A stretch of 64,000 nt of DNA from Pocillopora damicornis (lineage: Eukaryota), in contig NW_020847472.1 of assembly GCF_003704095.1 (NCBI RefSeq), positions 248,001 through 312,000 of the forward strand, in the 5' to 3' direction. Below are positions 29,901 through 64,000 of the stretch, piece after piece. A program made the translations under genes and the position numbers. The notes below the pieces were generated by a model that was not told the DNA's origin, searched no databases, and saw only the letters and a program-made list of their open reading frames with translations. Positions within the stretch are counted from its first letter, which is position 1, and every line of letters begins with the position of its first letter.

Positions 29901-30171
29901 CTATGCTCCCCAAATCATCTTTCTAAATTGTGGTGGAAGCAGTGCCCTTCCCAGAGGCTCATGGTACCACTACAGCTATGGAACAGTTGCTATGTATAAA
30001 GAAGACTGGGAAAAATTTGGAGGCTTTTCACAGGGTTTTGTTAACAAAACCACGTGGGGAGGAGAGGACTGGGACATCATTGACGGCGCAGTCAAGGGTG
30101 GCCTGGAAATAGAAAGGAAACGATCACCATGGGTCTATCATTATTACCACACCAAATATGGAATGTGGTAA
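26982..30171 (+). CDS. Beta-1,4-N-acetylgalactosaminyltransferase 3/4-like paralog A (type II membrane, PA14 plus GT7), about 641 aa. Exons 26982-28093, 28555-29074, 29878-30171
   Basis: N-terminal TM segment. LCNFPIFPKAPD and RLLGFLVP..G.H.F..TSNGFAEVWLS..QVAWKRP (PA14). GNRYLLEL, LCYP.GL.W and VKNLGRWVHHFI. Metal-binding DLH and WGGED, both characteristic of B4GALNT3/4. GT-AG junctions with phases 2 and 0. Intron 2 contains an assembly gap. Confidence 0.92.
29223..29430. other. Assembly gap (N run)
   Basis: Run of N. Confidence 1.
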
Positions 30172-34890: not shown

Positions 34891-35227
34891 TCGTTCCTGA
34901 ATAATATAAGTTGTCCAACTCGCCAAGGAGTATGAATCAGATAACGGAAGATGTGGGCAGCTCGGACTGTCCCATGTTCGATATTTTCAATGAAATGCAA
35001 ATAAAGCGTTTGATACATTTACGCTGCTGGGGTCGTTCCCACGGAGATTTTCTTCTCAGTTAAGATGTATTGTTAAAGGTGTTAAAGAAAAAACTCACAC
35101 GAAAGACTGTAATAACGACTTCTCTAAGGTTGTCAAAACGACAACAACTACCGACAACAACTACCCTAGCCTGGACGATAAGACATGCGATTAAATAACT
35201 CCCCAGGGTTCGAACTATCGTATAAAG

Positions 35228-35356
35228 GTCGGATAACGTTATCCAAGAGATGAAAGGCTATCCAGAGGATAAGTGATATCAACTTACTACACCATTTACC
35301 GGATAGGGATTTATCCAGTGGATGGCATTAACCAACCTTCAAAAAACCGGGGCCTG
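35228..35356. mobile_element. Short repeat with iterated GGATA/TATCC motifs, Harbinger-type MITE fragment
   Basis: ggataacgttatcca..ggataag..ggatagggatttatccagtggat, ending ccggggcc. Confidence 0.45.
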
Positions 35357-36517
35357 CTGGTGAAAATTACGCCATTCATCGCGAAATGAAGGAGACGTGA
35401 TGGTGGAAATGCACCCAGTAACAATTGTTTTTGAATTTTTATTTCGATGTCTTTCAAACGAGAAAAGTAATATATCTCAGAAATGGCAAGCCTCTCGGAA
35501 GTTTCTCTTGAACAATATAAATGAAAAAATTACAACAACTTGAAACAACAATAGATTGAAGTACTTGCCTACAAACAATTGGCAATGACTTGCAAGTGCT
35601 GGTGGTAACAATTTTCCACAACCGATCAAAATATTTTACTGTATTAAATAGTTTCGGATTAACAATACAATTCCAAGCAGACAATTGATAAGAATAAAGA
35701 AAAATATAAATAGGAGATTGTTAATTATTTGATCCATTACCAAATTCTCTGAAATAAGATCACAAGAATTGTAAGGCAGATAGTCAGGTGAATTACTAGT
35801 GAATTCAGTCCATAATAGCTACCATAGCGCGGCTCCATGCCGTAAATAAAACATTTGCTTCACAATTCATTAAATAAAAGTTAATTTATGCATTTAACGT
35901 TTGCATGTTTAAACATTGCTTCATAGTATAACGGGACGAAAACGAATATGACGGGTATAGGAGTAAGTAACGTAACTCATATTATTGTGGCAGGAAGTAT
36001 AATAAGACCTCTTCTCATAAAAGAACATATGGGATGACATTTGATCATGATTTTACCATAATGTTGAACGTTTTGGACAGGAGAGAGAAAATCTCTCAAG
36101 GGTCGCGCGCCCATTCGCTTATTTGCTCCTAAGTAGTAGAAGAAAGTTGTGTGCAATCTAGGTAAATCTTTACAATCATTAAGTATTCAACTTCTCTATC
36201 ACTACGCCTATGATATGGCGATTAAAATTCTGAAAGGAGGGTAGAAATGAGTTGAGAGAAGGGAGGGGTGCCGCTAAAGCTTACAAGCTTTGATCTTCTT
36301 CAAAACAAAATTATTTCTCTTGCTTCATTGTTCACGACGAAGAGCCATTAAGGATTGTCGCATATCGCCCTCATGAAGCCACGTTGAAATATTCAGAACG
36401 AATGTTTTAAATGCGATTTAAAAACTTGTTAGTACCACACTCGTAGACCACGTCTTCGTGTCCCAAAATAGTAAATTGAATACCTCGCTGGCCTTAAATA
36501 TGACCTTTAAACATGGA

Positions 36518-39500: not shown

Positions 39501-40295
39501 CGTCCGAGACTGCGCACAAGTGGGAGCTTTTGGTAACTCATCGTCGAGAATTTTCAATTTCGCCTTATCTATGTCCTTTGTATACAGTAAGAAGAACTTG
39601 TTATCGATGATCTCAAATCTACGACTATCTGGTCTTTTCCAAGCGACCTGAATTAAATGTTTGCTTCTCGTTGCATTACTCTGCGACTGAATGTAAATGA
39701 GTTCAAAATAGTATCTTCGTTTGGCGGCTAATTTCACGCTATCCGAAATCTGAGACTTTATACCCTCAAAGGACATCTTCTTCAATGGCGAACTTTGGGA
39801 CCGGATGTAAGCAATTCTTTGAGCGCCTGTCCAGTTGGCATTAGGACTTAGCCAAACCTCTGCCAAGCCATTTGAAGTTAATAAAAATTGATGTTCTCCA
39901 GAGGCATTCGGTCGAATGTAACCCAGCAATCTAATGACTCGATCGAGTCTTCCACGCTCTGAGATAATGTTGACATTTGGAATGTACTCTCTTGCATCCG
40001 GAGCCTTTGGAAAAATTGGGTAATTGCAGATTTGTTCGAGGCTGCTCTGGCAAAACTTTTCCCAAGAGTGTCTATTCAACCCGTGAAGAGTAACCTCGGA
40101 CTTGATGTCTACATCCAGTTCTATGTTGTAGATGTCTGGATTAGATATCAACAACTTGTCGCTTGTCCCAAGGATAAGCGTTGCGTTCGAGGAGATTTCC
40201 TGACGATTCAACAGATAAATCACAACTAATATGACCCAAAGACCGACTGTAGAAACGCCAAAATAAAATGCTTTCACTAAAATGACACGATTCAT
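36518..40295 (-). CDS. B4GALNT3/4-like paralog C, about 744 aa, with a 103-aa Lys/Ala/Pro/Met repeat tail. Exons 40295-39184, 38296-37777, 37120-36518
   Basis: Exon 1 is 1112 nt as in paralog A, and exon 2 is 520 nt. TM segment, PA14 region, DMH and WGGED motifs. The last exon reads past the position where A and B stop. Intron 2 contains an assembly gap. Confidence 0.9.
36530..36802 (-). repeat. Coding minisatellite, 13 imperfect 21-bp units (consensus peptide KAAKPMP)
   Basis: Plus-strand unit ttttgccgcttttggcatcgg repeated without frameshift. Confidence 0.93.
37544..37772. other. Assembly gap (N run)
   Basis: Run of N. Confidence 1.
38618..38985. mobile_element. Tc1/mariner-type MITE remnant in intron 1 of paralog C
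   Basis: Iterated aagcggtca(c)c motifs, with the inverted end accgcttaaaacaggttcgaccgt matching aacctgtatcaagcggt. Confidence 0.5.
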
Positions 40296-41821: not shown

Positions 41822-42259
41822 ATGCAGCGTAAATTAAGTTTGCCTTATGAAAGGTTGACAATGTTTCGCCAACGGGCTCTCACGGACATTGTTGAACACT
41901 CTGACGAGGAAGGAAAAGATTCTGCCAGCGAAGAAGACACGCAGAAAACTGTTAATAGAGGTGACGCCAACAAAGGCGAACAGAAAACACAAGCAAACTT
42001 TCCGTTGATGCACCAAGTGGTAATGGAGGGAAACTCAGAACTGCTAAAAGAACTAATTAAAAATGGCGCAGATATAAATGTTTTGGACGAGAATGGCTGG
42101 CCTCCTATGCACACAGCGATTCGATCTGGCAATACTGAATGTGCAGCCATTCTTATCAAGGAAGGAGCTGGCGAGTTTTATTACAATAAACAGAAACAGG
42201 ACTATCTTAGAAGACTAGAACGTTGTCAAAAGGGGCGCAAGATTTCGTACTGGAGGTGA
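41822..42259 (+). CDS. Small ankyrin-repeat protein, 145 aa, paralog of 23484-23942
   Basis: FPLMHQVVMEGNSELLKELIKNGADINVLDENGWPPMHTAIRSGNTECAAILIKEGA. Shares N-terminal RKLS and C-terminal FY..KQ...Y..RL with the 23484 protein. Start context caacATG. Confidence 0.88.
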   Translation: MQRKLSLPYERLTMFRQRALTDIVEHSDEEGKDSASEEDTQKTVNRGDANKGEQKTQANFPLMHQVVMEGNSELLKELIKNGADINVLDENGWPPMHTAIRSGNTECAAILIKEGAGEFYYNKQKQDYLRRLERCQKGRKISYWR

Positions 42260-46627: not shown

Positions 46628-49600
46628 ATGGTTCAACATCCTCTGATTGTTGTGATGCTTCTCTTTACCCTGAGTGCATGTCATTCAGGTAAGAAAGTGA
46701 AAATTTTCTTTCTAACCTTGTTTATAACTATTTGCTTCTCAATCAACTTGCAATTGGTATTTGTCCCTTTCTTGAACTTAACCAGTTGGCAACAGTTATG
46801 GATACAACTTTCTAATGAAGCATTTTTCGACAGAGTGTCTTAAAACCAAAACAAAAGTTACCCTGACGGCCAATCAGAACAAACGGAATATCACAAGAAG
46901 CCACTAAGAACTCAAAGCAAAAACACGAAAACGACCTGAATAGCGAGAAAACGCAAATAATCGAGTCACGATTGGTTCACGATCAGTTACCCTTGAATAT
47001 GAACAGCTGATAGAGTGGCCCGAGTTTCCTGCGCCAATCTGGTGTATGATTAGCGTGCAAAAGTACTAAGCAAAATCAATGCACTTCAGGATTACTTTCA
47101 ACGCTCAATTGAGAATTGCTCTTACAGCTTTCTTCAATCATGATTATGTATTTCACTTTACCTTTTTCTCCGGGCGCGGCAATGTGTAGCGTCTGATCTT
47201 TGCCAGGACTCAAAAGACTGTCAGGCTTCCTTTAAACCACTGGGATGCTTCAAAGACAAAAGCCACGAACGAGCTCTACCTCATTACATCTATAATGAAC
47301 GCGACGACTCCATAGCCAATTATGGCGGGCAAATGATCGACTGGAATGACTGGGAAAACTATCTGCCAGGGTTCGTCTGCCGCTGTGCCAAGAAAGCAAA
47401 AGATCTGGGTTATGACTTGTTTGGAGTGCAGTTCTTTGGTAAGTGTTATTCATATAGACATCCATCTCGAGTAACCCGTTTGAAGTTACCAACAAATTGG
47501 AATAGCAAAGAGAACTGGACAGAGGTGATGTCGAAACCAATCTTTGATATTTGATTGAAGGGTGAAGAAGTTGCAGGATCGTAAACTGTTCCGAACGTGT
47601 GTGCATTTTTCAGCCATAACCTTGATTAGAGTGACATTTTGTCATAACATACTCGAACCTCTTAAGCTTAAGAAAAGTTTTCAAGCGATCAGCCGGAAAC
47701 AGGAAGCATATGTGGACACGCGCGACGTTGTCCAACGTAATCACCTGAGGGAGCAGTCATTTTTTTGGGGGGGGAGGGGAGGGGGAGGTCAATTGGTTCT
47801 AAGGGGGAACGGAAGGGAATTAACTGTCAATGAGGGGGGGAGGAGGGGTATATGTATTTTACAGAATTTTATCGTGACACAACCAAAATTCTCCCAACCC
47901 CCTCCCCCAAGCGATAAAAGTTGCCCGGTCCCGAAGCTCAAAATGATTACGCCGTATTAGACATAAAAAAAAGCCAGGTACTATTGCATGAGAGATAACT
48001 ATGCATCAGCGATCAAGGCAACGATCGACAGTAGACTAAATCTGTAGCTAATACTTGGAACTATAACGATGTGAGTGCACGATTCCCTGGCAGAAATCGT
48101 TAAAGAGTCATTGCATCAGTTTATTCAGCTGGGTAGGTTGATGGGCTCCGTCTCGATATCAATATCTAACTGAGGTATGGTACATTCTCTGCTAATAGGT
48201 GAATGTTACGCTGGAAGCAGCTCGTCGGATAAATATGACAGTTATGGCCCAGGACGGTGCAAAGATTGCGTTGGGACGGACATGAACGACTGCAATGGGA
48301 GAAAGTTTTGTGCAGGGAAGGAATGGCGTAACATGGTGTACAAGATTGTCGGTAGGCATCAATCATACAGGGTACAGTAGAATAGTGTGAGACTATTAAG
48401 AGACGAAGCACGTCTGAAAGTTTAGTTGTACCGGATACAGTTTAATGAAGTTGACTGAGCGCTGATTGGTGGAGAATAGTTAGAGGAGTGGAATGCCGGA
48501 TTGGGATGTACTGGAATGGGGATTGGGGACCAGTGCAAATAAGTCCATTCATACGCCATAGAGCACTCTGAGTGTAGTTTCTAAAATGGAGTAGATTTGA
48601 CAGTCAGTAGTGTCACGTGCGCGTAAATCAATACAGAGGAAGAATAAGGCATTGAAGGATATAATAGGAAAAGTAAATTTAGGTGTAGTAGACTGTTAGA
48701 GTGGAATTGAATCGACTGCAGTGGGTTAGATTGCATCGAAGTGAATTGGGTAAGTGCGAGTAAAGGGGAATGAGTTGTTGCGTTCAGAGCGAAAAGTGAA
48801 AAGGAATCAATCAGTCGCAGAGTATTGCTTTGTTGTACAGTGCAGTAGGTATGGTAAGAGTGGAGAGTTCGTGTTGAGTAGAGTAAAGAGGAGTAGAACG
48901 GAACAGAAGGGAAAGGAATCCAAGGATTTTTTTTCTGTGAGGTGCTTTACAATGAGAAGGACTCCAACTTGAGGCATTGCAATGCAGAGCAGTAAACGAG
49001 GAAAGTAGATTCTGGTAAAATTGATGACTTGGGTCTAAGTGTGATGCAGCCCAGTATGGGGAATTGCAACATGTGGCATTGCAATACAGCGCAGCGAACG
49101 AGGTAGATTTTATTTCGGATATAATGGATTCAGTTTTTTGAGCGGTGAATCCGCTTTACGCTCAAAATGGCGTGAGATTCAGGCGACGCGGCTTTCATTT
49201 CAAAGGTGTATAGTTTTAGGTACTCTTGTACATTGTTGCACGGGTACTTAACAAACCAATTGTTAAACCATTTATTCAGATTTATGCAGTGTCCGCTTTG
49301 AGCGAATCGGCTGCTTTCATGATAACAAAGAAGCTCCACGCCTCCTGCCATCGTACTTGTTAAATGACAGAGATGAGAATTTGCCCAACTTCAGCGGTCA
49401 GCTGATTGACTGGGAAAACTGGTACGAGTATCTTCCTGATCTTGTTTGCCGCTGCGCAGAGAAGGCGAAGGAAAAAGGCTGGAAACTGTTTGGAATTCAG
49501 TTTTGGGGTGAGATAATTATTCAACCTGTTTATCCAGTTGTCGAGGGCATTGGGACTAAGGCCCTTGTGTAACTCAGCTACAAAGAAAATACTGGTAAAG

Positions 49601-50717
49601 CAATGCAACAAATTTAAATGTTACCTTAGTACCTTCATTTGCGCTTGCGTCCTTCATAAAAACGAAGAACAACACTTCGGAAAGCGCATGATTTTCTTGG
49701 GAAAAGAAGATAGACGACTGTAGCACCTAAAAGACACAAGTTCACTTCCTCATGATGCTATTTCTTAGCAATCACAGATTACAAATTTGAAATCATGACA
49801 ACCACAGTTTACTTATTCGTTCGCGCCAACAATTCATAATCAATCTTTAAGCAGTTCATTCGAATTAAATTTGCCATATCATGATATCACTGAAGGTGTT
49901 CACGTAGATCAAAAGAAGGCTTTAAAGCCAGAAAATAATTTCGTGGTGTATACCATCACGAAGCTGTGAAAATGCTGTGGTCTTAATGAAGAATTGTGCA
50001 AATACGTGAAGCGCCCCCTTTCTATGAATTCGATTGACAGCTGTTCTTGGTCAGTGATGCTTTGATCAGTTTTGTTATTTTATTACCTTTACCCAGGTGA
50101 ATGCTGGGGTGGTCCTGATGATTCAGCGTTCTATGTTGAAGGGCATGCTCAACCTAGTGGATGTGCAGACCAGTGCTCTAATGACTGCGCCTGCTCGAAA
50201 AGATTTTGTGCAGGAAAGACATTTACCAATGCTGTATATGCCATCAGTGAGTATAACAAGGCTGACAGTTTCTGATGCCACTCAGGGTGTCCGATCACTT
50301 TTGACCTGCTTGGTTAAAAACCTTGTTTCCTCACTTCATAACCTCAATTACTCAATTACCAATTCAAAAGTGTGTAGCACTTCTTTTGTTACTCTTATAT
50401 ATCGGGAGTCAGGATTGTTTCTGTTGCACGAAACTGCCTCGTAAAACTTGTCAATGGTTCCCGAGAATTTTACCACTGAACATTTGATACTATGTTAAAA
50501 CAACATTATGTAGTTGATAGTTTACGTTGTTGTTCTCGTCACGTGGCTTACTGCTTAACATTTGCTTGGTAATGATCTGGGCTGGGGGAAACTCTCGTAC
50601 TAATGCATGGCATCCTGTCTTATCATTCATATACTTTGGTAATTTATCGTTTGTCTCATAGCGGAACACATTGCTGAAGGAAGCGCTACGGCTTTGGGTG
50701 GCTACATTTGGGGGTAG
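46628..50717 (+). CDS. Secreted Cys-rich protein with two tandem WSC-like modules, gene D, about 298 aa. Exons 46628-46688, 47190-47438, 48199-48351, 49280-49507, 50097-50246, 50662-50717
   Basis: Signal peptide MVQHPLIVVMLLFTLSACHS. Two copies of GCF.D...R.LP.Y..N.RD.....G..IDW..W..YLP..VCRCA.KAK..G...FG.QF.GEC..G...C.....C...FC.GK...N.VY.I. All introns are phase 1 GT-AG. Confidence 0.88.
46830..47122. mobile_element. Interspersed repeat rich in ccaatc/gattgg motifs (MITE-like); related fragments near 16905-17040 and 29120-29220
   Basis: aaccaaaacaaaagtta..gccaatcagaacaa..attactttcaacgctcaattgagaattgctct; partial matches elsewhere in the window. Confidence 0.45.
48375..48930. repeat. Degenerate purine-rich 5-bp-period satellite (GAGTG/GAATG/TAGAG) in intron 3 of gene D
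   Basis: Strong purine skew and pentamer periodicity; homologous tract in gene E at 53735-54350. Confidence 0.6.
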
Positions 50718-51394
50718 CTTATCGCAGAGACCAAAGAACCCAACCAACTCAGAAGGATTGAACAAGAATTGTAGATTAAATGAAACTCAGTGAACACGAA
50801 ACGTAGGATAAATAAGAACACTCAGTGAAAAATAAAATCTAAGAAACATTAACTGGTAGTCTGCGTTCTACCCGTGTTATGTATGCCAATATGAAGCAAT
50901 CTGGGCGAAATGTTCTGTAAAACCAGCACAAGTTGATTCATATAATTAAACCAATATTTCAGTCCCGTATTACCGAAGGCGACTCTGCTTCAAGTGTAGT
51001 TACGTACTGTTTTTTAGGTAGGAAAACAGAACGACTGAGAAAGGGGTGGCATCCAGATAATATCCAGTAACAATGGCTTGATAATAAAACTAGAAGGCAC
51101 CAGAAATTTCTATTGTGTCTTTTCTAACCTTTTATGATCACTTCCTTCAAAAGAATATTATTCTACTTCATTCACTAGTATGGATAAAAAGTGTGAGACA
51201 AATCATAAGATACACGAATCGTGATTGAATACCAGACATTTAGCAAGCTTCACCATGTAAAGGATTTACTGCCAGCAGTTTACCTCGATCTCGATAAAGT
51301 CTGCTTCTAAGCATGAAAAGCTAACAACAATGGCTCGAGGAATAGAAGTAGAAAGCAGTCAGAGGTTTCATGATCAGATAATTTGGTCTCCACA

Positions 51395-51600
51395 ATTATC
51401 AACTGAGTCGATGATGTGAATCGACCACCTAAAAGAGTTTCATAAGCTGTAGTTACGAGCGTTAGTCGTTTGTTCGCCCATCGTGATGACGAAAGGCTAA
51501 CGCTCGAAACGTCACACTATAAATTCGGATGATAAACAAAATTATCTTGTAACAGTCTCACACACGCAACACTAGTTTCTTCGGAAACTTACTCTATTTA
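51395..51600 (+). mobile_element. Interspersed repeat with a hammerhead-like core, copy 3, arranged as an inverted pair
   Basis: atgacga-aaggctaacgctc-gaaacgtc at 51486-51513, preceded by an inverted degenerate copy (aagctgtagttacgagcgttag). Confidence 0.6.
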
Positions 51601-52479
51601 TTCATAAATATTTCATGATTAGTTCATTTACCATAATGACGAAAGAGAATGCTATCAAAGGTGCAAACAAATGTTGGAAGAAAGGAAAGAAAGGCAAGAA
51701 ACGATTAAATCCGACTCACTTAACCGAAAAAAGTATAATTTCTGTTTTACCGATTTGAAGCTAAGACGAGTACAGTTTATGCAAGCGGCGCGATTTTATT
51801 CCACATGAAAATTTTAGGGTTAAACAAGGGCGAACAAGCTCATTTAAATAAACGATTGACTGGTTTGAATGGGAAAGTGTTGGATAAGTTTGATGCTTGT
51901 CAATGATTCGCCAAACAAAGATTCCTTGGCTTTGTTTTCTTTTTTTTTCGAAAATAAAATAATTTGTTCCATCTGTCCTTTAAATGTTAAGTTATAATTT
52001 ATACTGTAACTTAAGATTAAATTCATTTTCATCAATGCCATCTGACAAACATTTGCTAATTAACCAAGTTTTCCTTATTGCTCCACTTACACGAATATTC
52101 ACTTGATTAAATTTTACATTTACCAGTGAGGTCAGAAACAATAAAACATGGGAAAGTTTACCAAAAAAACATATTGCTCTAGCTGTGTTTAAATTCATTA
52201 CACCCTAGGTGTTCCCTCAAAAACTGTTCTAAGTATCAATATTCTTCAGAGTACAAACAGACGGAGATTTCTGCGGAGTGAGAAGGGTCAAGGTAAGGAT
52301 CCGAAGCTCTCCGCTTGCTTCTCAGTTGTCAGACACAAATGACACAAGGAAAAAGTATATAGCACACAATTAAATTGTTTTAGAGTCAGTTTGTTATAAA
52401 GCGGTTGGTACATGTTCTACGAATATATGTATTCATTCGGCTACAATCTTTGACTTTTTTCTAGTGTTACGAGAGGAAA

Positions 52480-55400
52480 ATGGTAAATTCTGCGTTAGTC
52501 TTCATACTGGCGATTTCTCTAACGCTGATAAAAGGTGAGAAAAACTTGCCCCCTTTTGAAACCAGTCTCGCGAAAAATGGGAAACTTATTTAGGGAAACA
52601 AAATTGTTACAGGATTTTCAAAGTGCATTTCTAGTCGAAAAATAATGTCGGGAACTTAAGCAAAGAGAAATTATAATGCGAGAACGTATTTCAGAGACAT
52701 ATCATGAACTAATTAATATAAATGATTTTCCTTTGCTTTACAGTCAACTAAGCGGCCGCAAGACTCTTTCGAGCCTGTTCCATTCCTCTGCTTCCTTTAC
52801 AAAGAGGGGAGGGAGGGGGGGGGTGGGGTAAGCAGGAAGGAGGGAAGGTTATGGTATTGAGAACGCTCGCCTCTCACCAATATCTCGGGAAGTGGGTTCT
52901 ACGCCACTCCAGAGGTGGCATTATCGGGCAATTCTGAATTAACTGCCGAAAGAATTCCGCAATAGTTTCACTTTGGTATCGCAGCCTCGACCGGTATTTG
53001 ATTGATCGAGGGAGTGGTGCAGGCTTCCTACACTAATAAGATAGCTAAGGTAAATAAAACCAACGCATTCTAGTATTACTTTCTGCATTCTTTAATCTTA
53101 AAAATGTGCTTCATCCCATCTTTTACTCGTGACGCGGCAATGTGCAGCGTCTAATCTTTGCCAGGATCCAAAAGACTGCCAAGTGTCTTTTAAACCATTG
53201 GGATGCTTCAAAGACAAAAGCCACGCACGTGCTCTTCCTCATTATATCTATAATGAGCGCGACGACTCCATAGCCAATTATGGCGGGCAAAAGATCGACT
53301 GGAATGACTGGGAAAACTATCTACCAGGGTTCATCTGCCGCTGTGCCAAGAAAGCAAAAGATCTGGGTTATGACCTGTTTGGAATGCAGCACTTTGGTAA
53401 GTATTAGGGGTAGTTAGTCGAAGCGGCTTCACCATACTACTGAGACCAGGATGAGCTCTGATATGATTTACATACTGGCTCTTAGCATGCATTGAATTTG
53501 TATAGATAGTATCCCTCGGTATTGATATCTTATTAGGTAATGTTACATGACCTACCTATAGGTGAATGTTACGCTGGAAGCAGCTCGTCGGATCAATATA
53601 ACAGGTATGGCCCGGGACAGTGCAAAGATTGCGTCGGGACGGACATGAACGACTGCAATGGGAGAAAGTTTTGTGTAGGGAAGGAATGGCGTAACATGGT
53701 GTACAAGATTGTCGGTAGGCATCAATCATAAATCATATTGGGTACAGTAGAATATTGTGAGAGTACTAAGAGTAGGAATAGTGGTAATAGTAACGGTAGT
53801 GAAGGTTTAAGTTCAATGGAATTAAGTCAAAGATGTAAAGTGAATGCAACACATCTGAAAGTTTTCAGTAGTTGACTCGGATACAAGTGAATGAGGGCGA
53901 GCAGTGATTAGTGAAGAACAGTGAAAGGAGTGGAAAGAAATGAAGAAAAAAATGGAATGGGAGAAAATGAAATGGGTGTGGGAACAAGTGCAAAACATTG
54001 CATCCATATGCAGTAAAGTATACCTGGTGTGGTTTGTGTGACGTAGCGGATATAAGGGAATAGGAACAGAGTCAGCAGAGTATGGAATGGAAGGAACTAA
54101 ACACAGAGAGAGAGGATGGAATTGTAGAAGAAGATTTAGTAATGATAGAGTAAAATTGAGTCGACTACAATGGGTGAAAATGGGTTTCATTGCATCGAAG
54201 TAAATGGGGTAGTTGTAGGCGTAGGGTAGCAAATTTCTGTGGCATCAGAGGTGCTAGCGTAAAGGAACTGATTCCTGATAGTAATATTTGTGAATTCGTG
54301 TAGAGAGGAGTGAATTGGAGTAGTATGAAATGGAAAGGAAAAGAATTCAAGGATTTCAGTGTGATGCCTTTGAGTGGGGGGAATTGCAATTTGTCAGCAT
54401 GGCGTCACAACTCAGTAGATAAGGTAGTTTTGTAAAATAATATAATGTTTCAATGAAGTGAACCATTAAAAGCTCAGAAAAGTGAGGTGGCTTCATTTCT
54501 ACGGCGTGAAGTTTTTCTGGTGTTCTTCTGTAGTTTTGTATAAGCCTATTAACACACATTGTGAAACGGATTGATTTAGATTTATGCAGTGTTCGTTTTG
54601 AGCGAATCGGCTGCTTTCATGATAACAAAGAAGCTCCACGCCTCTTGCCATCATACCTGTTAAATGACAGAGATGAGAACTTGCCCAACTTCAGCGGTCA
54701 CCTGATTGACTGGAAAAACTGGTACGAGTATCTCCCTGATCTTGTTTGCCGCTGCGCAAAGAAAACGAAGGGAAAAGGCTGGAAACTGTTTGGAATTCAG
54801 TTTTGGGGTGAGATATTTATTCAATATGTTTCCTCACTCGTAGAGGGTCGCCGGACGCAGAGAATTGAGGTCCTGTTGTACTCTTATAAATCAACTGAAT
54901 GATCCCATTATAAACTTAGCCACAAGAAAAATCTTGCTGAATTAGTCCAACAACTTTACAAATTGCGTAGGTACCTTATTTTGAGCATGTGGCCTTCATA
55001 CAGTAGTTTAAGGAACACCAATTTCCACAGCTTATGTTTCATTAAAACAGAAGAAAGAAAAGCGCGGCTTCTGTATTAAGCAAATACAATTCCCCTAAAT
55101 GCAAATCTTCAAAAATCACACATTGCAACAGCCATAATATCATCAGCTTGTACTTATTCGAATGCACTCACGATTCTTGATCACTCTTCGTGCATTTACT
55201 TAACTTTAATAGGCAGTATGTCATCTTAAGAGTGCTCACGTCAACTGAGGGGAGGCTGCAGAACTAACGAAAAAGAGAGTTCGTTCCACACACTTTCATG
55301 AATGCAGTGATGAGCAAAATAAATAAAGTTCTGCCTTTTTTCATTTAAATAACTGCTCATGAGTCACTTCTATCATATATTTTGTGCCCTTAACTCAGGT

Positions 55401-55961
55401 GAATGCTGGAGTGGCCCTGATGACTCAGCGTTCTATATTGAAGGGCATGCTCAGCCTGGTAGATGCGAAGACCAGTGCTTTAATGACTGCGCCTGCTCGA
55501 CCAGATTTTGTACAGGAAAGAACTTTACCAATGCTGTATATGTTATCAGTAAGTAAAACATGAGTTGACGAGTAACCTAACTGTGAGAATTCGTTTTTGC
55601 TTAAAAACTAGGATTTTCTTTTCGTCACATTGCGGCCTGCATAAAAACTTTCACGTATTGATATGAAAAGGGAAAAAACTCTTGTATGAGAGAGACAGGT
55701 ATGTTGATCGGACATTTTGAACTAAAACCCTACTTAAGGGTCAAATCAACATTATTTATGGGTAGAGGGTATCTAAAATGTCTCAACTTATCGTCTCGGA
55801 CCAAAAAAAATGTATCTTTTAACTAAAGACACTTTGCATACTAAAGCTGTGCATCTTCTCTTAACATTCATAAACTTTGATACTGTATCGTTTGTCCCGT
55901 AGCGGAACAACGTATCGATGAAGGAAGCGCTATGCCGGACAAGGTCAACATTCTGGGGTAG
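52480..55961 (+). CDS. Secreted double WSC-like-module protein, gene E, about 297 aa. Exons 52480-52534, 53148-53396, 53562-53714, 54580-54807, 55399-55548, 55903-55961
   Basis: Exons 2-5 have the same lengths as in gene D (249, 153, 228, 150 nt) and near-identical sequence. Signal peptide MVNSALVFILAISLTLIK. Confidence 0.88.
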
Positions 55962-56107
55962 TTATTCGCAGGGATCAAGGAACCCAACAAACTAAGAGGG
56001 ATTGAACGACAACGAAAACATATTTAATTCAGTGAAAAAGAAACTAGATGACAAAAAAATAAATCCAAAAAACAAATATTCTCTGGTGGTCTCTATTTTG
56101 CTTGTGT

Positions 56108-56110
<3 letters not shown>

Positions 56111-56148
<38 letters not shown>
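56111..56148. repeat. (AT)n microsatellite
   Basis: Directly visible. Confidence 0.97.
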
Positions 56149-56151
<3 letters not shown>

Positions 56152-56542
56152 AACATAAAACAATCCGTACGAAATTTTTTGTCAAAACCGGCACAACTTG
56201 TTACCCAGAATTAATCCAACTTACGTTTAGAAGTCTCTGCTCCAAGGGAAGTCACGTTTTGCTTTTAGGTAGGAAAACTAAATGAATTGGAAGCCCCTTT
56301 GACTGCATGGGATAACATAACAACGGCTTGGGAAGTAAAACAAGGTTTCATTCTACTTCATTTACTTGTATAGATAAAAAAAAAAAGAGACAAATAAACG
56401 CGCTCAACGCATCTTAACATGAGAAAGATTTTGCTACTAGGAGTAGTATACGTCCCATGGGACTCTAAGAGTTGTGCACATGCACAAGAACACATTTCTG
56501 ATTAAATAAATCATTGATGTGATTAGAAGAGAGGTGAACAAT

Positions 56543-56717
56543 TTAACCCTTAACACCCTAACATCAGCATTCATATTCTCCATACTGTTCTCTGGACACA
56601 ATCAAGAGTTTCTTTAGTTGATCATTTCCTTTATTCTCATAACATTAAAGTGTGATTCAGGGATGATATTGTAAGGAGAAATTAGATACTAGTCATTCTT
56701 AGGGGTTACAGGGTTAA
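56543..56717. mobile_element. TTAA-flanked piggyBac-type MITE
   Basis: ttaa-CCCTTAAC...GTTACAGGG-ttaa; reverse-complement relative of 20303-20504. Confidence 0.75.
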
Positions 56718-58008
56718 TGGACAATGATTTAACAAGGTCAATCACTCACAAAACAAAGAGGTTTTCGTTTTCGCACTTGTGCTCTTTTTTTCCTGACAAA
56801 AAATTGATGAGTTATTTCTTGATATTTATAAATCTATTTTGTAAGAAGTTCAATGTGAATTGCAACCCTATTCAGTCACAATTACACTGAACGGTTTACA
56901 TTCGCGACGACGTGGGGTCGAGTATAAAAATTTCCTGAAATTGTTTCCTATATGCATGTCCTCTAAGTTCATAGCTGATATTGTAAATTCATTTTGAATT
57001 TATTTCCATCAATTCCATCTGACAAACATATGTTAATCAAATTAACCGACTCTTTCTTATTGCTCAACTTGCACGAGTGTTCCCTTGATTAAATTTTGCA
57101 TTTACCAGTGAGGTCAGAAACAATCAGACATGGGAAATTCTATAAAGAAACATATTGCTCTAGCTGTGCTTGAATCTATTCAGCCCTCAGTTTTCCTTTC
57201 AAAACTGTTAGAAATAATTGTAATTGACAAGTCAAGTCATACTAAAGAATAAAGTTGTCACTATAGAGTACAAACAGAGATCAAACTTGAACAGCTAGTA
57301 GCGAATTTCCCAAAGCGGTTGGGTTTTTTACCAACAGTGTCTTTGAGACCTTGCTTGGTGAGTAGAAATTAACTCTCTGCTTTCTGTTGTATTATAATTT
57401 ACATTTTAATTACATTTACAATCTCTGCACTTATTCTGAAATTTTCCCATATACAATTGTAAACGAATTATATTCTTTCAGACTGAGATAGATCACGGAA
57501 ACGTTAGCAGTCCAGAGTGATCACGGAAAAGTATACGTACGTCAAATCTATTTGAGGCATTGGTGCATTTCAAAACTTTTTGTTTTTGTTTTGAGGGACA
57601 GAGGAAATGGATGAAACTCTTCCCTAGATCACGATAATGATCAGCCAACGTCTTTCCTAAACAGATAGAATTATTTCCTTACGTAAAAGAACGTTTCTTT
57701 TACAATCCATGTCCATGTTTGATCTTATGAAAATAATGCGGATTTGGTCTCTGTACCTCATTCACTCTCAGGAATGACGTTAAAGTAATATTTTTTACAT
57801 TTACTAAGTGCTAAAATAGCGAGGTACTCCACGAAAGGCGAACCAAAAGAAATGAAAAAGCCGGAGTATTTTTTTCTTGTGTATTAAGCTTCATGATTCC
57901 TATAAATATCAAGATGGTATGGGAGCATTTTGAATTCCACGCAAATATTCCTTGGACTAAAGTTTTACCTTTTCTAACATAGAGACTTTCTGGCACTACG
58001 AGACGAAA

Positions 58009-60576
58009 ATGGAAAATTTCGTGTTAGTCTTGGTATTGGCAGTTTCCCTCACGTTGGTAAGAGGTAAGAAAAACTTTCCATCGCTCGTTGTCCGGCATTG
58101 TGGAAAAGAGAAATTATGATACAGTTTGTAATGAAACAAATTTTATTTCGGACCTGCGGAATAAAATAAAGAAAAGCAATGAACCTCGCCGGTGAGCTGG
58201 AAGCAATTGCACAAAACAAATCTGAAGAAAAATTCAGCCTTCGAAGGGATTCGAACCCAGGCCTTCCAAGTTGGGCGCTATTACTAACTGAGCTACTATG
58301 CAACGCATTGCAATCAACTTATTGACCTATCAATGATCAATTTATTCCTAGCTAATGTCGACCCGTGTCACTGTGACACCACATTCGAACCGGCGAGATG
58401 TTACAAAGATCGCACTGATCAACGCCTGCTTCAAAATTATATCTTAAACGAGAGAGACCCAACATTAAGCAACTATCGAGGAAAATCAATCGAGTGGACA
58501 AATTGGCAAAACTACTTACCAGAATTCATCTGCCGCTGCGCGAATGAAGCCAAACTTCTTGGATTCGACGTTTTCGGTATCCAATTTTATGGTAAGGAAT
58601 TCTTTGCTTCCATACCTTCGCATCAACAGCATTTGTGCTGCATTCTATACGAAAGCTTTACACCCGTATATGCAAATTTCACACACTTAGAGATTATGAT
58701 TATGATATTAGGAAGTCACCTTAATTAGTATGAAAACTAATAGAGTTCAATTAGTGACATGGATCAAGTTCATTGCATTGATACACAAAGATAGTATATC
58801 TTACTATTAAAGGTGAGTGTTGGGCGGATAAACTGTCAGTCCTGAGACAGAAAGGATGGATCTCCAGGGAACTAGCAGAGCCAAGCGACTGCGTGGATGG
58901 TCAGTTTCAACCTTGTAGCAACACGAGGTACTGCAGTGGAATTCGCCACAGAATGATGGTCTACCATATTGTTGGTGAGAACAACCCCGTATCTTGTGGT
59001 CATTCTCTACTGTTGTTTTATTCATAGTTACCACACACGACTTGTGTGTAGGTGAAGCGCGCCCGCATAAAAACAGACGATTTTCTTTCTAATCTTTAGA
59101 AAGGAAAACTGTTACTTCATGCAAGGGAGCACGTGTACCAATTTGTTCTTTTTCCTAATTAATAACTCAGAACAACACTTGGTACAGAGTAATAAAAGGC
59201 AATCGGCCAAAAGGTGAATGTGGTCAGCAGTAGCTATAGTGAATAAAATCATACCTTAGCGAGTATGGGGACCCTTCCCCCATTCCCCCCCCCCTCCCCT
59301 CCCCTCCGTTCCCGCTTGATTTAAAATAACATAGGGTCGGCACGTTTCGACAAAACTCAGTCAGGTTCAAGAAAGTTTGATTACAATATTAGCACATGTT
59401 CTATTTCAAAGAAATAGTCTTAACTGAAAATACAATTCTTCCATTAGCAATAGCCAAATTTGAAATCTGGTATACCGCAAAGCCCTCTATGGGCTAAATG
59501 GCATGCTAATGCGACCAAATTCAAACAAAAACCCCGTTAACGACCCACATTTTGTAATTTACTTATCAGTGATCTCTTTCAACAGACATGTGCGACATTC
59601 ATATCGAGAAACTCGGTTGTTACAGAATGAGATTCCAAAGTCAACCCTTCCTACCTGAGTACGTCCTCAGTGACAGAGACCCCAAGGCGCAAAAGACCTG
59701 GAGCGGGATACGCATAGACTGGCCTAACTGGTATAAGCATTTGCCGGACTTTGTTTGCCGCTGTGCACAAAGAATCAAGCAAAAAGGATACGGATGGAAG
59801 ATCTTTGGCATCAGAAACTGGGGTTGGAATTGAGTATTGGCGTTTCTATAGTTTCCCTTTTGGGTACTTAGGGAAGCGAAATTCCTCATAAACTCATGAA
59901 ACTGCACCGATGTCCTTCTAATTACCACCAAGGTGGCCTCCAGGCTATCTGGAATTGTGGAATTAGCACATCTGACCGTAGTTAAACAATCCACAGCAAC
60001 ACCTAAGGTTATCATTTATGATTAAAATTGAAAGCTTGATTCTTATGCTGGATTTTAATTTTCTTTCATGCAGGGGAATGCTGGAGCGGTAATACCACAT
60101 CTGACACCTTTCTTCTTCAGATGGTGGCCAACGTAGGCGAATGCAAGAACCAATGTTTCAAAGATTGCAAACACGATGATCCATTTTGCACAGGAACAGA
60201 TAACTCCAATGCCGTTTATGTAATTGGTAATGGCTAATGTTATGTAGATCTTCAGTTTAGCGGCTGTACAAGCGTTTAGATAAAAGCATTCAGATGAAAG
60301 ACATGTGGGAAACGATAGCTTCTTATAGTTACATACTTTTATTTTTTTTCGTTCTCATCAATGCCAAAACTGTTTACCACCTAAAGAAGGTGTATGTAGT
60401 TGTCCAAAATCAATTTAATTTGCATAAATAAAAACCCATGACATAAAAATCGATAAAAAAAATGCTAAACATTATCCTTGCACAGCGAGTGTGTGACTTT
60501 ATTCCCGCCATACTTAGTTCTTGACATAAAATTTTTTTTTATAGTTGACAACTCAAATGAGGCGGGAAGTGGATGA
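58009..60576 (+). CDS. Secreted double WSC-like-module protein, gene F (more divergent), about 292 aa. Exons 58009-58063, 58352-58591, 58813-58974, 59586-59822, 60074-60226, probable last exon 60545-60576
   Basis: Signal peptide MENFVLVLVLAVSLTLVR; same module motifs (ICRCA..A...G...FGIQFYGECW) and phase-1 introns. The terminal exon is less certain; the alternative is read-through to TAA at 60235-60237. Confidence 0.85.
58125..58304 (-). mobile_element. tRNA-derived SINE in intron 1 of gene F
   Basis: The minus strand has a Pol III A box TAGCTCAGTTAG and B box GGTTCGAATCC, followed by a non-tRNA body (ctgaatttttcttcag...) and an AT-rich tail. No complete cloverleaf. Confidence 0.75.
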
Positions 60577-63048
60577 TGTGATGAAATTATGGCCTACGAC
60601 TGAACTTTTAGCTCACTCAAGCGTAATGATTATTGATCGTCATGTTGGATATGAGAAGTCTTCAGTTATCCCAATAGACCTCTAGACTGATCATATAACG
60701 TATACTGAATTAAAAGAGGTGAATAGTAGAATCTAACAGGTTTGACTCGTTGACTCTAAAGGCTGGCAATCTGCGCACTCGAAAAGCCTTGATTCCACCA
60801 TCGTGTATCCTTCACTTGAGCAAGTCTAAATAAGCCCCTTCGATGTTGGATAGGTATTCATAAATTTTTCTGACTCTTTTCATTCCCGACTTAATGCGAG
60901 TGCTGCTTTTATAACCGTTTCTAAATTGATCCTTGCACCATTTCCCATTCTTCCCTTACCTGGCTACTGTCCCCTATGACCAGCACTTGTTAAGTTTCAT
61001 CGTGCTAATTTCATTCAACCACCCCTTCCATCCTTATCGCCCACATTTCCAAAACCTTATATCCACCATCACCGCCACAAACACACACACACCACATAAA
61101 CACCACAAACTGCAGCTGCAATTGGGGAAGTCATTCCTCTTTCTGCCGAAAAAAATTCCTCTTTACCTAAGAGCAACAATCCATTCCAAAAACTCAGCCA
61201 ATTAATTTTTTCCCATCTTCTAGGGAGGAGAGGGTAGAATGTTAAAATGTTTTCATCGAATAAATGTGCGAAGCAGATTGAGATCTTGAGTTTTTTCACG
61301 ATAGGCATGAAAGTTAGGCGAAACTAAGAGACGATGGAGACAAGGCGATGTTGTTATGACAGCAGGATCGGCATTCAAACGCAGACGAATTACACCCATG
61401 AAATTTCTTTACGTTTTAAATAATATTTAATTTGCGTGGTTTTCAGATAAGAATCTCAACTTCAATCTGCATAATTTTGCTCTCGATGTCTAGTTTTAGA
61501 AAGGCAACACGGAAGAAGTTTGCTGACTGTTTTTGTATACTTTGTACCTACCCTCCGATCTAAATTTCAGCTAGGTACATTATTATATTAAAATTTCCTT
61601 TCCACAAATCACGACTTCCACTATTCCATCTACTACCAAAGTCAAAGTACTCCCATTGGGACGTTTCTTTCTAAGAGCTGATTTACAGCAGAAGACTCAT
61701 AACGGCTCTTTGTCTTGAAGTCTCGAATTAATATTTAAATCTTGTATTGGTTTGTCTAAGGTCCATTAATATTCCCATAAAGAGTGCTTTCGTCACGAGA
61801 TGACTATCGCTCTGATCTTGGAGGTATTTAATCAGCCCATTTAAATGTCTCATAAAATAAAAGACGTAGATAGAATTACCTGTTCTGTAATTATCACAAG
61901 ATAACCTGAAATGTGTCTGGTTAAAATAAATTACGGACCCAAAGGACGACCTCCGAACTCAAAAGTATGAACCATTGCCCTCTTACAAAGGAAAATTAAT
62001 ACGGGCAAAATTTTGGATCGTGCTACGAGAAAAACACCGTAATTGACAGTATTATAGCATACAGCAGGTGTTCGACATTGTCAGTTGTCAAAAAAACAAT
62101 GATTCTATGCTAACGCGAGAAAGGAGCACTTACTAGTTTACTTGGCATAAACCAGGATGGATGCACCCAAGAGTTGGACAACTCTCAAAGATCACACTAT
62201 TAAATTTTAAAAACTTTCATTACAAATGACTTCTACGACCTTTCTGTTTAAGTTTCCATCTTTCTTTTCACTTTCTTTATCCCCACAGTCCATTGATTCA
62301 GTGTCGCCGAAAAGGCGCCACCTACAGGGTAACACAACAGCCTCTTCAACATCTCCCTTAAGAACAGTTCGCATGAAAGGACAGCCTAATACTTTATCAC
62401 CTTTATGTTTTCCTTCGTCGTCCAGCCACAGTTTTGTTTGATAACAAAGTTATCATTTTAAATTTTAGGGTGCAAAGAGGACCATAATCCGGGGCACCAA
62501 TGTTTGACAAAGTTCAGCTGTTTCAAGAGTTCAAAAACAGATCAGAAAAGCCCAAAAAAATGGCAAATTTGAAAAAAAAAACTTCAAAAAGGCAACCCTA
62601 AAATTGGTTTGACAAGCCATACAGTACATGATTCATGCCTAACGTAAACTACTACGTAGCTACTACAAAGGAGGATTATCAATTTCTTTATCTCTATGAT
62701 AAGCTGCAGGCTGCATCTCTTACAGTTACACGTGTGTAGGAAAAAACAGAGGGATATAATTAGAATGATACTATACGCACAGCTTTTTAGCTGTCTTCAA
62801 CTGTTTTTATTTTTGTTAATTTTAATCACTTTATGCCCATGATTTAACAAAAGCGTGATAACATGGATCACTAAAATCTCCTTTGCAAGACAAAGAAACG
62901 TGACCTCATATAGCTCTAATACCTTTGAAAACAAACCTTCTACACTATACTCAACAGATACAACACAACGAGAGTGCTTTTGACCAAAAAAAGATAAAAA
63001 TGTTTTTTTTTCATCGACTATGAGTTATTAATTTACAGGGGTCGTCTC

Positions 63049-64000
63049 TTAGAAGACATCGCCTCTCTCTTCGTGTAACTTCATATGTTTCCTTAACGAA
63101 TTAACCTCACTGAAGCGCTTCTTACACTCCTTCAATCGACACAAGAAAGGTCTGTCTGAGGTATGCACATGCGAGTGCTTCTTCCTGTCACTTGAGTTGC
63201 CAAAACGGCGTCCACAGTCGGGAAAAGTGCATAGAAATGGCTTCTCTCCAGTATGTGTCCTCTTGTGTATTTTCAGATTCTCCGCACGTGAAAATCGCCT
63301 ACCACATCCAAGGTACATGCACATAAAAGGCTTCTCCCCAGTATGAACTCGCAGATGGTTCACTAGCCTGTAGCGTTCCTTGAATGGAAGCCCATTCCTG
63401 GAACAGTCCTTCCAACGGCATACGTATCGCAGTGAGGTGCTGTTGTAAATATGAAGCTCAGTGACATGGCCTACCAAATGGTCTACGGTGCCAAACACTT
63501 GATCGCACACAGAACTAAGCTCTTTATCATGATGCTGAACTACCCAGCAGCACTTTAGTGGGTTATGAGGCGCAGGCAGAGCCAGGCTATAGGTGATGGG
63601 TGGATCCACAGCAATTCCCAACCCTGGCGGTGCATTGTAACTCGCAGCAAAACTCTGAAAATTCAAGTTGCTTCCATCGTATTCTTTTCTGGGAAAGGTT
63701 AGCTGGGCACTTTGAAAGTCTTGATGGGAGTTATCCCAGGCTTGAGGAGGCATTCCATGCTGGACTGTGGACGATAATGTACTGCCCGTGAAGAAAGCTC
63801 CTTCGTAGCAAGATATTGGTATAATATTGGTTTCCAACTCGCCAGAATCTCTTTGAGGCATGGTGTGAACGATTTGGTCACTATCTCTCATAGCTGAAGC
63901 GCAAGGGGAACCTTTGAAAAAGCTGTGGGGCGGCGCCCCACGGAAGCCTAAGGTGCACGAGCTCGACGGCATAGTTGGTCCGACCACGTACGAGTCTGAG
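63049..64000 (-). CDS. zic: Zic-family C2H2 zinc-finger transcription factor with five fingers, intronless and divergent; probably 5'-incomplete (frame open to the window edge)
   Basis: Tandem CWCH2 fingers 1-2 (CCW, CRWKDC.R.G.PFK..Y.LVNH.RVHTGEKPF), ENLKIHKRTHTGEKPF, NSSDRKKHSHVHTSD and SLRKHMK.H are Zic hallmarks rather than Gli/Glis. Confidence 0.9.
   Translation of the reverse strand, partial: SDSYVVGPTMPSSSCTLGFRGAPPHSFFKGSPCASAMRDSDQIVHTMPQRDSGELETNIIPISCYEGAFFTGSTLSSTVQHGMPPQAWDNSHQDFQSAQLTFPRKEYDGSNLNFQSFAASYNAPPGLGIAVDPPITYSLALPAPHNPLKCCWVVQHHDKELSSVCDQVFGTVDHLVGHVTELHIYNSTSLRYVCRWKDCSRNGLPFKERYRLVNHLRVHTGEKPFMCMYLGCGRRFSRAENLKIHKRTHTGEKPFLCTFPDCGRRFGNSSDRKKHSHVHTSDRPFLCRLKECKKRFSEVNSLRKHMKLHEERGDVF

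What the first reader, a model, noticed from the sequence alone, without database searches (positions are those of the whole stretch)
47172..58082. Gene E is a chimera: promoter and signal-peptide exon of gene F fused to the body of gene D
Exons 2-6 of E match D (exons 2-5 identical in length and near-identical in sequence). Exon 1 of E (55 nt, MVNSALVFILAISLTLIK) instead matches F (55 nt, MENFVLVLVLAVSLTLVR), not D (61 nt, MVQHPLIVVMLLFTLSACHS). The D-E and E-F intergenic regions are homologous (50620-51190 vs 55860-56390; 52020-52265 vs 56990-57280). This is the footprint of an unequal crossover that duplicated the segment from D intron 1 to F intron 1 (about 47172-52550 vs 53130-58082), placing a D-type protein under F-type regulation.
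Basis: partly seen in the sequence, partly recalled or inferred. Interest (0 to 1): 0.7.

Follow-up and report, generated by a model that had tools for sequence, protein, structure and literature searches.

The report
Hybrid coral gene with borrowed promoter
In a reef coral, an extra, spliced gene carries the protein-coding body of its left neighbour behind the upstream region and predicted export-signal exon of its right neighbour, likely the product of one off-register duplication that would change where the protein is made; this is a known way of making genes, and a similar hybrid is annotated, likely of separate origin, in a distant coral.

Summary
Confirmed. E is a hybrid. Coding exons 2-5 match D (89-95%). 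Coding exon 1 (41/55 nt), the upstream block (about 80%) and the start of intron 1 match F. The similarity runs in order from D intron 1 to F intron 1, so one duplication of about 5.5 kb explains it. One RNA-type contig joins E exon 1 to exon 2; another joins exons 2-6. E is present in Stylophora, and Desmophyllum's annotation shows only D then F.

Corrections: D and F share no convincing intron homology, so a homologous unequal crossover is not shown. The swapped piece also includes a 5'-UTR exon. The predicted mature protein (two WSC-fold domains) is unaffected by the swap.

New: exons 2-4 look gene-converted between D and E after the Pocillopora-Stylophora split (6 sites vs 0, reversed in exons 5-6). 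Oculina's annotation shows the same D-E-F layout, with D and E bodies 253/260 identical. That suggests a second origin, though an old origin with homogenisation is not excluded.

Whether E is expressed like F is untested. This is an anti-Lepore-type architecture, a known kind.

The parts
41822..42256 (+). Ankyrin-repeat gene upstream of D; synteny anchor, not part of the duplication
   Evidence: tblastn with Stylophora P0023 (89%) and Oculina P0034 (70%). Stylophora, Oculina and Desmophyllum gene models fuse this gene to the D-type gene (P0025, P0033, P0007).
46628..50717 (+). Gene D, 298 aa: predicted signal peptide plus two WSC-fold domains; six coding exons; 61-nt coding exon 1. A 5'-UTR exon ending at 46134 is weakly indicated.
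   Evidence: Same sequence as RefSeq XP_027057897.1. Joints exon 1-2 and 3-4 in run X2; the UTR exon rests on a 10-letter loose end only. Pfam WSC E=5e-8.
46936..52660 (+). Copy 1 of the duplicated unit: 3' part of D intron 1, D body, 3' flank, F-type promoter block, E exon 1, start of intron 1 (ends approximate)
50719..51286 (+). D 3' flank, similar to the E 3' flank at 55962-56454
   Evidence: 340/435 aligned columns; 0 of 200 background stretches as high
51948..52261 (+). E upstream block, copy of the F upstream block; inferred proximal promoter
   Evidence: 252/311 identical to 56918-57278; two hits in the genome. The F copy lies just before F's spliced 5'-UTR exon.
52250..52292 (+). Inferred 5'-UTR exon of E (donor at 52293, acceptor before 52465); start approximate
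   Evidence: By position and similarity to the start of F's UTR exon, and good splice signals; no RNA joint seen
52480..52534 (+). E coding exon 1, 55 nt, F-type predicted signal peptide
   Evidence: 41/55 to F exon 1. In run X3 one contig carries 20 letters of it (1 mismatch, single match in the window) joined to exon 2.
52535..53147 (+). E intron 1: F-like 5' part, D-like 3' part, unassigned middle (about 52655-52933) holding the junction
53148..55961 (+). E body, coding exons 2-6, D-type; 297-aa product with exon 1
   Evidence: 232/260 aa identical to D, 118/256 to F. Ka 0.05 and Ks 0.21 vs D. All four joints of exons 2-6 in one contig of run X10.
52934..58200 (+). Copy 2 of the duplicated unit: E body, 3' flank, F promoter block, F exon 1, start of F intron 1 (ends approximate)
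56918..57357 (+). F upstream block and 5'-UTR exon (donor after 57357; a second donor after 57530)
   Evidence: Joints to the exon starting at 57983 in runs X10 and X14; read as GT-AG with one polymorphic base in X10
58009..60576 (+). Gene F, old paralogue of D (115/256 aa), same six-exon plan, 55-nt coding exon 1
   Evidence: Joints exon 1-2 (X10, X14), 3-4 (X10, X4), 4-5 (X3, X14), 5-6 (X3, X10); exon 2-3 joint not seen. Desmophyllum orthologue P0059 is 65% identical.

Best explanation
E joins F's upstream region and predicted signal-peptide exon to D's coding body and is spliced as one gene; it most likely arose by one off-register tandem duplication of about 5.5 kb with breakpoints in coding intron 1 of D and of F, and would make a D-type secreted two-WSC-domain protein under F-type control. 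Shown: the mosaic similarity, the open frame, the splice joints, E in Stylophora, and purifying selection against D (Ka/Ks about 0.24). Inferred: a single event, before the Pocillopora-Stylophora split and well after the split from the Orbicella lineage. The join was probably made with little or no homology (about 60%; about 30% crossover in residual homology or a shared repeat since lost). It is in frame because both introns are phase 1. The join sits at the predicted cleavage site, so the swap changes regulation and the export signal, not the mature protein. Later, exons 2-4 were likely homogenised between D and E by gene conversion while exons 5-6 diverged. The protein is likely an extracellular glycan- or protein-binding molecule, inferred from the WSC fold only.
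For: Collinear similarity of introns 3-5, 3' flank, upstream block, exon 1 and the start of intron 1. RNA joints. Ankyrin-D-F with consecutive accessions on one contig in Desmophyllum, whose D and F carry D-type and F-type first exons. Stylophora has D (P0024; exon 1 15/20 to D) and E (P0012; 14/18 to E, 11/18 to F) on a scaffold of the same length. The exon-1 peptide tree puts 3 E + 2 F on one side and 7 D on the other (62/89, not starred); pocilloporid E with D is marginally rejected, p-AU 0.047. Age: Ks D/E is 0.21-0.29, against 0.8-2.3 by segment to the Orbicella-like transcript L046. All five D/E or E/F non-coding segments tested align (0 of 200 background), and none of 10 comparisons with genomic contigs L055 and L060 does convincingly (best 8 of 200). 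Conversion: among Pocillopora and Stylophora D and E, exons 2-4 have 6 sites grouping by species, 0 by gene and 1 crosswise; exons 5-6 have 0 by species and 6 by gene (Fisher p 0.002-0.005; AU 0.037 and 0.022).
Against: The E exon 1-2 joint rests on one contig of depth 2.5, with 20 letters on the exon-1 side and intron 2 retained, in 1 of 4 runs laid; that run's RNA status is a guess by the tool. RefSeq models of P. verrucosa E use another first exon, at window 51636 (P0001, P0016). The exon-1 tree has 21 columns and no starred branch, and holding the two F rows apart from all E is not rejected (p-AU 0.18). D upstream vs E upstream scored above 249 of 250 background stretches under the loosest gap setting, but not under two stricter ones (78 and 236 of 250). 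About 280 nt of E intron 1 match neither parent. Other species were seen as proteins and accession order only, not DNA. Conversion evidence is protein-level, with 13 sites. No expression-pattern data.
Confidence: 0.8

Rival explanations
1. True unequal crossover: D and F mispaired through residual intron-1 homology or a shared repeat and recombined homologously.
For: Breakpoints fall in the equivalent intron of two paralogues. Weak D/F intron-1 similarity (46745-46888 vs 58072-58226) lies roughly in register with the junction (9 of 600). The same layout in Oculina would be easier to explain by a homology-guided event.
Against: Borderline under stricter scoring (32 and 28 of 600). Absent between D intron 1 and E's F-derived part (155-325 of 600) and in anchored tests. 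D/F synonymous sites are saturated and introns 2-4 of E and F do not align.
Confidence: 0.3
2. One ancient origin in the common ancestor of pocilloporids and Oculina. The whole repeat unit was later homogenised in each lineage by expansion-contraction or conversion, and collapsed back to D-F in Desmophyllum.
For: The same ankyrin-D-E-F order and an F-type exon 1 on Oculina E. Conversion does occur here. A clade of all three E exon-1 peptides is not rejected (p-AU 0.10). Two exon-1 columns (2 and 18) loosely separate E from F.
Against: It needs homogenisation of introns, 3' flank, promoter and exon 1 in the pocilloporid stem, since all are far younger than the Orbicella split. It also needs losses or missed annotation elsewhere: only one D-type gene name each for Orbicella and four Porites species in clusters read in full (15 of 15, 8 of 8). 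Body trees reject an all-E clade (p-AU 5e-41 and 0.03; expected under conversion too). Exon-1 columns 7, 9 and 11 group pocilloporid E with pocilloporid F.
Confidence: 0.3
3. Two steps: duplication of the whole D-F pair, then a deletion from intron 1 of the first F to intron 1 of the second D.
For: It gives the same end state. Secondary deletion of tandem duplicates is described as common in Drosophila (PMC4069613, passages).
Against: One more event. No remnant of a second F body or D promoter was found between D and E.
Confidence: 0.12
4. E is a decaying or barely expressed by-product, or an assembly artefact.
For: RefSeq models lack the F-type exon 1, and RNA contig depths are low.
Against: Open frame in the window and in models from P. 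verrucosa, P. meandrina (body) and Stylophora. Ka 0.05 vs Ks 0.21. Full spliced body in X10. Four other runs of one study hold 0.90-0.93 of E's words. Introns differ from D by 24-30% plus indels.
Confidence: 0.05

Closest known systems
Anti-Lepore HBB/HBD fusion genes of mammals (PMC4041002, abstract and outline; PMC6526914, passages)
   Same: The hybrid sits between both parents, with the downstream parent's promoter and 5' part on the upstream parent's coding part. It arose repeatedly in separate lineages and is accompanied by gene conversion.
   Different: Globin parents are close enough for homologous crossover, and one or both are usually lost afterwards. Here the parents are about 45% identical in protein, no crossover homology is shown, all three genes are open and spliced, and the join is in the intron after the signal-type exon, so the mature protein is not a hybrid.
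Chimeric genes from tandem duplications with both ends inside genes, Drosophila yakuba and D. simulans (PMC4069613, passages)
   Same: Same geometry, with no need for parental homology; about 10% of gene-capturing tandem duplications there give such chimeras.
   Different: Those are young and segregating. This one is shared by two coral genera and joins two old paralogues.
HERC5/6 chimera in rodents and bats (PMC7775381, abstract and outline)
   Same: A chimeric duplicate of two adjacent paralogues, reported as arising independently in two lineages.
   Different: HERC5/6 mixes protein domains; here only the upstream region and signal-type exon are swapped.
lpl tandem cluster of Staphylococcus aureus (PMC2568036, abstract and outline)
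   Same: The unit of evolution is the 3' part of one gene plus the intergenic region plus the 5' part of the next.
   Different: Bacterial, many copies, driven by a conserved central recombination site; no such site is seen here.
WSC-domain proteins (Pfam PF01822; Kremen1, yeast Wsc1 and fungal glyoxal oxidase WSC domains)
   Same: Pfam score above cut-off for D (33.4 vs 27.8) and Stylophora E (32.1). The model of D aligns to 9n3u_A (Z 9.7, rmsd 3.3, 103 aligned), 5fws_A (Z 9.3, 2.4, 88) and 7pz2_B (Z 8.8, 3.4, 96), against 4.9 for the next fold.
   Different: About 125-residue domains, larger than the 82-position profile, matched only over profile positions 29-82. No membrane anchor or catalytic domain is evident; the ligand is unknown.

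Membership tests
Anti-Lepore-type hybrid gene | Hybrid lies between both parental genes in tandem | tested here: met
   D-E-F, same strand
Anti-Lepore-type hybrid gene | 5' part from the downstream parent, 3' part from the upstream parent | tested here: met
Anti-Lepore-type hybrid gene | Intergenic region duplicated with the hybrid | tested here: met
   3' flank and upstream block align; 0 of 200 background stretches as high
Anti-Lepore-type hybrid gene | Made by crossover between mispaired homologous sequence | tested here: inconclusive
   D/F intron-1 similarity borderline, 9-32 of 600; none via E's F-derived part; the middle of E intron 1 is unassigned
Anti-Lepore-type hybrid gene | Hybrid takes the expression pattern of the promoter donor | not testable with these tools
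   Only assembled contigs were served, which cannot give levels; single-cell supplements could not be read
Chimeric gene from tandem duplication with both breakpoints in genes | Both ends of the duplicated segment fall inside two parallel genes | tested here: met
   Ends inside D intron 1 and F intron 1
Chimeric gene from tandem duplication with both breakpoints in genes | The chimeric join is transcribed and in frame | tested here: met
   Open 297-aa frame; one contig joins exon 1 to exon 2: thin support, 1 of 4 runs
WSC-domain protein (PF01822) | Pfam score above the curated cut-off | tested here: met
   4 of 6 whole proteins pass (D, Stylophora E, Oculina E, Porites D). The two F proteins fall below (27.1; 17.1 for a model lacking exon 3). 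None of 9 single exons matched.
WSC-domain protein (PF01822) | WSC fold | tested here: met
   VIA-align Z 8.8-9.7 to four WSC-bearing chains, next 4.9. Foldseek gave no E below 0.001 but ranked Kremen and Wsc1 first. Model of D, pLDDT 80.
WSC-domain protein (PF01822) | Carbohydrate or protein ligand binding (function recalled, not from a call) | not testable with these tools
   No binding data

The most novel reading that the evidence does not exclude
The same promoter swap was fixed twice, once in the Pocillopora-Stylophora ancestor and again, more recently, in Oculina. The parents were too diverged to mispair, so selection repeatedly favoured making the D-type secreted WSC protein in F's cells or conditions. 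This would be a coral counterpart of the repeated anti-Lepore globins, in which the swap leaves the mature protein untouched and gene conversion keeps its first three body exons matched to the parent.
Probability: 0.35. Interest if true: 0.55.

Novelty: new member of a known kind. Interest (0 to 1): 0.38.

Why it matters
The mechanism is well known, so the finding by itself is a clean example, not a surprise. Three things add value. First, it is a natural promoter swap with both parents still present and spliced, so existing coral single-cell atlases could test directly whether a duplicated 5' region carries cell-type expression with it. Second, a like hybrid is annotated in Oculina, so either the same rewiring was fixed twice or an old two-unit array has been homogenised for a very long time. 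Third, exons 2-4 show signs of gene conversion, which a coral genome study calls very rare (PMC10236652, passages). Public gene models hide the structure: they fuse D, E and F (P0014, P0011) or give E a different first exon (P0001, P0016).

Tried and rejected
1. Dispersed-repeat origin of the shared promoter block: rejected, two hits in the genome. E intron 1 had one weak outside hit of 93 nt.

2. Generic resemblance of signal exons: a scan for 55-nt E/F-type first exons found only E and F in the window, and none in 15 own-genome stretches or 8 metagenome loci.

3. DNA spanning D to the next gene in other corals: 40 metagenome loci; 8 were examined downstream of the D-type gene, none reached a next gene, and none gave a convincing promoter match. 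Four starred scores were marginal; three lay on the reverse strand.

4. Expression pattern: in the two runs laid on all three genes (X3, X10), E and F had spliced contigs and D had no cover, while D joints appeared only in X2. The runs were chosen for holding E and contigs cannot rank genes, so this is not used as evidence. No joint from the RefSeq alternative first exon (51636) was listed in 4 runs; that is not proof of absence.

5. Absolute dating: published coral rates (0.83-1.42e-9 per site per year; PMC13440232, section 7) would put the Orbicella split far beyond the 177 Ma that paper gives for Desmophyllum's divergence within the robust clade, so only relative ages are used.

6. Species tree: PMC12856378 and PMC13440232 (passages) did not place Desmophyllum against Pocilloporidae and Oculina. 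That Oculina is nearer Orbicella than Pocillopora rests on the D-body tree (86/89, not starred) and recall.

7. F first exons of Oculina and Stylophora were not obtained; the Oculina F model lacks exons 1 and 4.

8. Literature: no paper held any of six accession or locus names. Searches on coral WSC proteins and chimeras listed nothing on this locus (listings only). Supplements of the Stylophora cell atlas were not seen and may hold the expression answer. Earlier scan notes had no look-alike stretch.
Full report
Setting. The window is G000:C4107:248001-312000. Gene D has the same sequence as RefSeq XP_027057897.1 of the coral Pocillopora damicornis. D, E and F lie head to tail on the + strand behind an ankyrin-repeat gene. 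Each has six coding exons and phase-1 introns. Each encodes a hydrophobic N-terminus (no signal-peptide predictor was available) and two copies of a domain encoded by exon pairs 2-3 and 4-5. Whole proteins score as WSC in Pfam (4 of 6 above cut-off). A model of D (pLDDT 80) aligns best to the WSC domains of glyoxal oxidase, Kremen1 and Wsc1 (Z 8.8-9.7, next fold 4.9). The family has many more members in this genome (37 exon matches) and in sea anemones. Its ligand is unknown.

Observation. D/E exons 2-5 have equal lengths and 89-95% identity, while E/F bodies share about 55-62%. E exon 1 matches F at 41/55 without gaps and aligns to D only with gaps. Similarity runs in order through the end of intron 1, introns 3-5, the 3' flank, a block of about 310 nt upstream of exon 1, exon 1 and the first 120-160 nt of intron 1. 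The five segments tested beat 200 of 200 background stretches. The upstream block and 3' flank have only these two hits in the genome. The unit is about 46936-52660 against 52934-58200, and about 280 nt in the middle of E intron 1 match neither parent. Later indels account for the remaining differences: intron 2 is 760 vs 165 nt, and a different high-depth repeat sits in each intergenic region.

Is E made? In run X10 one contig holds all four joints of exons 2-6. In run X3 one contig of depth 2.5 carries 20 letters of E exon 1 joined to exon 2; those letters match only E exon 1 in the window, with one mismatch. That is 1 of 4 runs, and the contig retains intron 2, so support for the hybrid joint is real but thin. 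F is spliced too (exon 1-2 in X10 and X14) and has a 5'-UTR exon just behind the conserved block. This marks the block as the likely proximal promoter and implies a matching UTR exon in E, which is inferred from splice signals only. Ka 0.05 against Ks 0.21 relative to D and an open frame in Stylophora argue that E is maintained.

Relatives (proteins and accession order only). Desmophyllum: KAJ7390935 (ankyrin fused to a D-type gene) and KAJ7390936 (F) are consecutive on one contig, with D-type and F-type first exons; this fits the ancestral D-F pair. Stylophora has D and an E whose exon 1 is 14/18 identical to Pocillopora E and 11/18 to F. Oculina patagonica has G036343 (ankyrin plus D), G036342 (D-type body with an E/F-type exon 1) and G036341 (F). 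Its D and E bodies are 253/260 identical to each other and about 201/260 to Pocillopora. RefSeq gives Oculina E a different N-terminus (P0029), so its F-type exon rests on one annotation. Orbicella and four Porites species show one D-type gene each in clusters read in full; absence of annotation is not absence. The exon-1 peptide tree separates 3 E + 2 F from 7 D at 62/89, with no starred branch.

Mechanism. One duplication from D intron 1 to F intron 1 explains the whole order. D/F synonymous sites are saturated. D vs F intron 1 is matched or beaten by 9, 32 and 28 of 600 background stretches, and E's F-derived intron part shows no similarity to D. I favour a join with little or no homology (about 60%), kept because phase-1 introns make it in frame and the break falls at the predicted end of the signal peptide. 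The product would be a D-type mature protein under F's upstream region. That E is actually expressed like F is untested.

Age and later history. D/E Ks is 0.21-0.29, against 0.8-2.3 by segment between Pocillopora and the Orbicella-like transcript L046, and Pocillopora introns do not align convincingly to genomic contigs L055 and L060. The present unit therefore coalesces long after that split and, since Stylophora has E, before the Pocillopora-Stylophora split. Among the four D and E proteins of these two genera, exons 2-4 have 6 sites grouping by species, 0 by gene and 1 crosswise, while exons 5-6 have 0 by species and 6 by gene (Fisher p 0.002-0.005; AU tests 0.037 and 0.022). This points to gene conversion in exons 2-4. 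PMC10236652 (passages) describes conversion as very rare in corals. Because conversion occurs, the Oculina case is ambiguous. Body trees reject an all-E clade, and three exon-1 columns group pocilloporid E with pocilloporid F. But an all-E exon-1 clade is not rejected (p-AU 0.10), and whole-unit homogenisation could mimic two origins. I put two origins at about 55%, one old origin at 30%, and an Oculina annotation error or another route at 15%.

Comparison with what is known. The architecture is that of anti-Lepore HBB/HBD genes, which also arose repeatedly and put one gene's coding sequence under the neighbour's promoter (PMC4041002, abstract; PMC6526914, passages). It also matches chimeras from tandem duplications in Drosophila (PMC4069613, passages), HERC5/6 (PMC7775381, abstract) and the offset unit of the S. 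aureus lpl cluster (PMC2568036, abstract). It meets the architectural features of that kind; the crossover feature is inconclusive and the expression feature untestable here. No paper in the searched library held the six accession names tried, and supplements that may hold cell-type data were not seen. Earlier unchecked notes of this scan report similar hybrids in other animals, which suggests such cases are not rare.

Verdict. Real, correctly seen, and a new member of a known kind. Interest 0.38. The possible recurrence in Oculina and the directly testable promoter swap are what lift it above routine.

Noticed in passing
window 27100-40290: Three paralogous genes that look like beta-1,4-N-acetylgalactosaminyltransferase 3/4 (name recalled from reading the exons, not from a call): two on the minus strand and one on the plus strand, 73-86% alike in exons. 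The copy ending near 36520 has a lysine/proline-rich repeat tail.
   Followed up: no
window 46628-60576: Public models are wrong here: GenBank P0014 (779 aa) and P. meandrina P0011 (697 aa) fuse D, E and F; RefSeq F (P0087) lacks exons 1 and 3, though exon 1-2 and 3-4 joints are seen in RNA.
   Followed up: yes
window 57357-57982 and 57531-57982: F uses two different donors for its 5'-UTR intron in two runs (X10, X14).
   Followed up: partly
window 1770-2720: Head-to-tail duplicate of about 450-500 nt at 86% identity.
   Followed up: no
window 58235-58300: tRNA-like fragment in F intron 1, possibly a SINE remnant; read by eye, not scanned.
   Followed up: no
window 63000-64000, minus strand: C2H2 zinc-finger coding stretch resembling Zic (recalled from the motif, not tested).
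   Followed up: no
G000:C2983:72407-95375 (L038-L040): A recent tandem duplication of roughly 10-15 kb at about 75-81% identity that includes a one-domain member of the same WSC-like family; whether its ends cut genes was not checked.
   Followed up: partly
G000:C4107:334215-337150, C4125, C1899, C4219: Further family members, most with three domains, including a three-gene cluster on C4219.
   Followed up: partly
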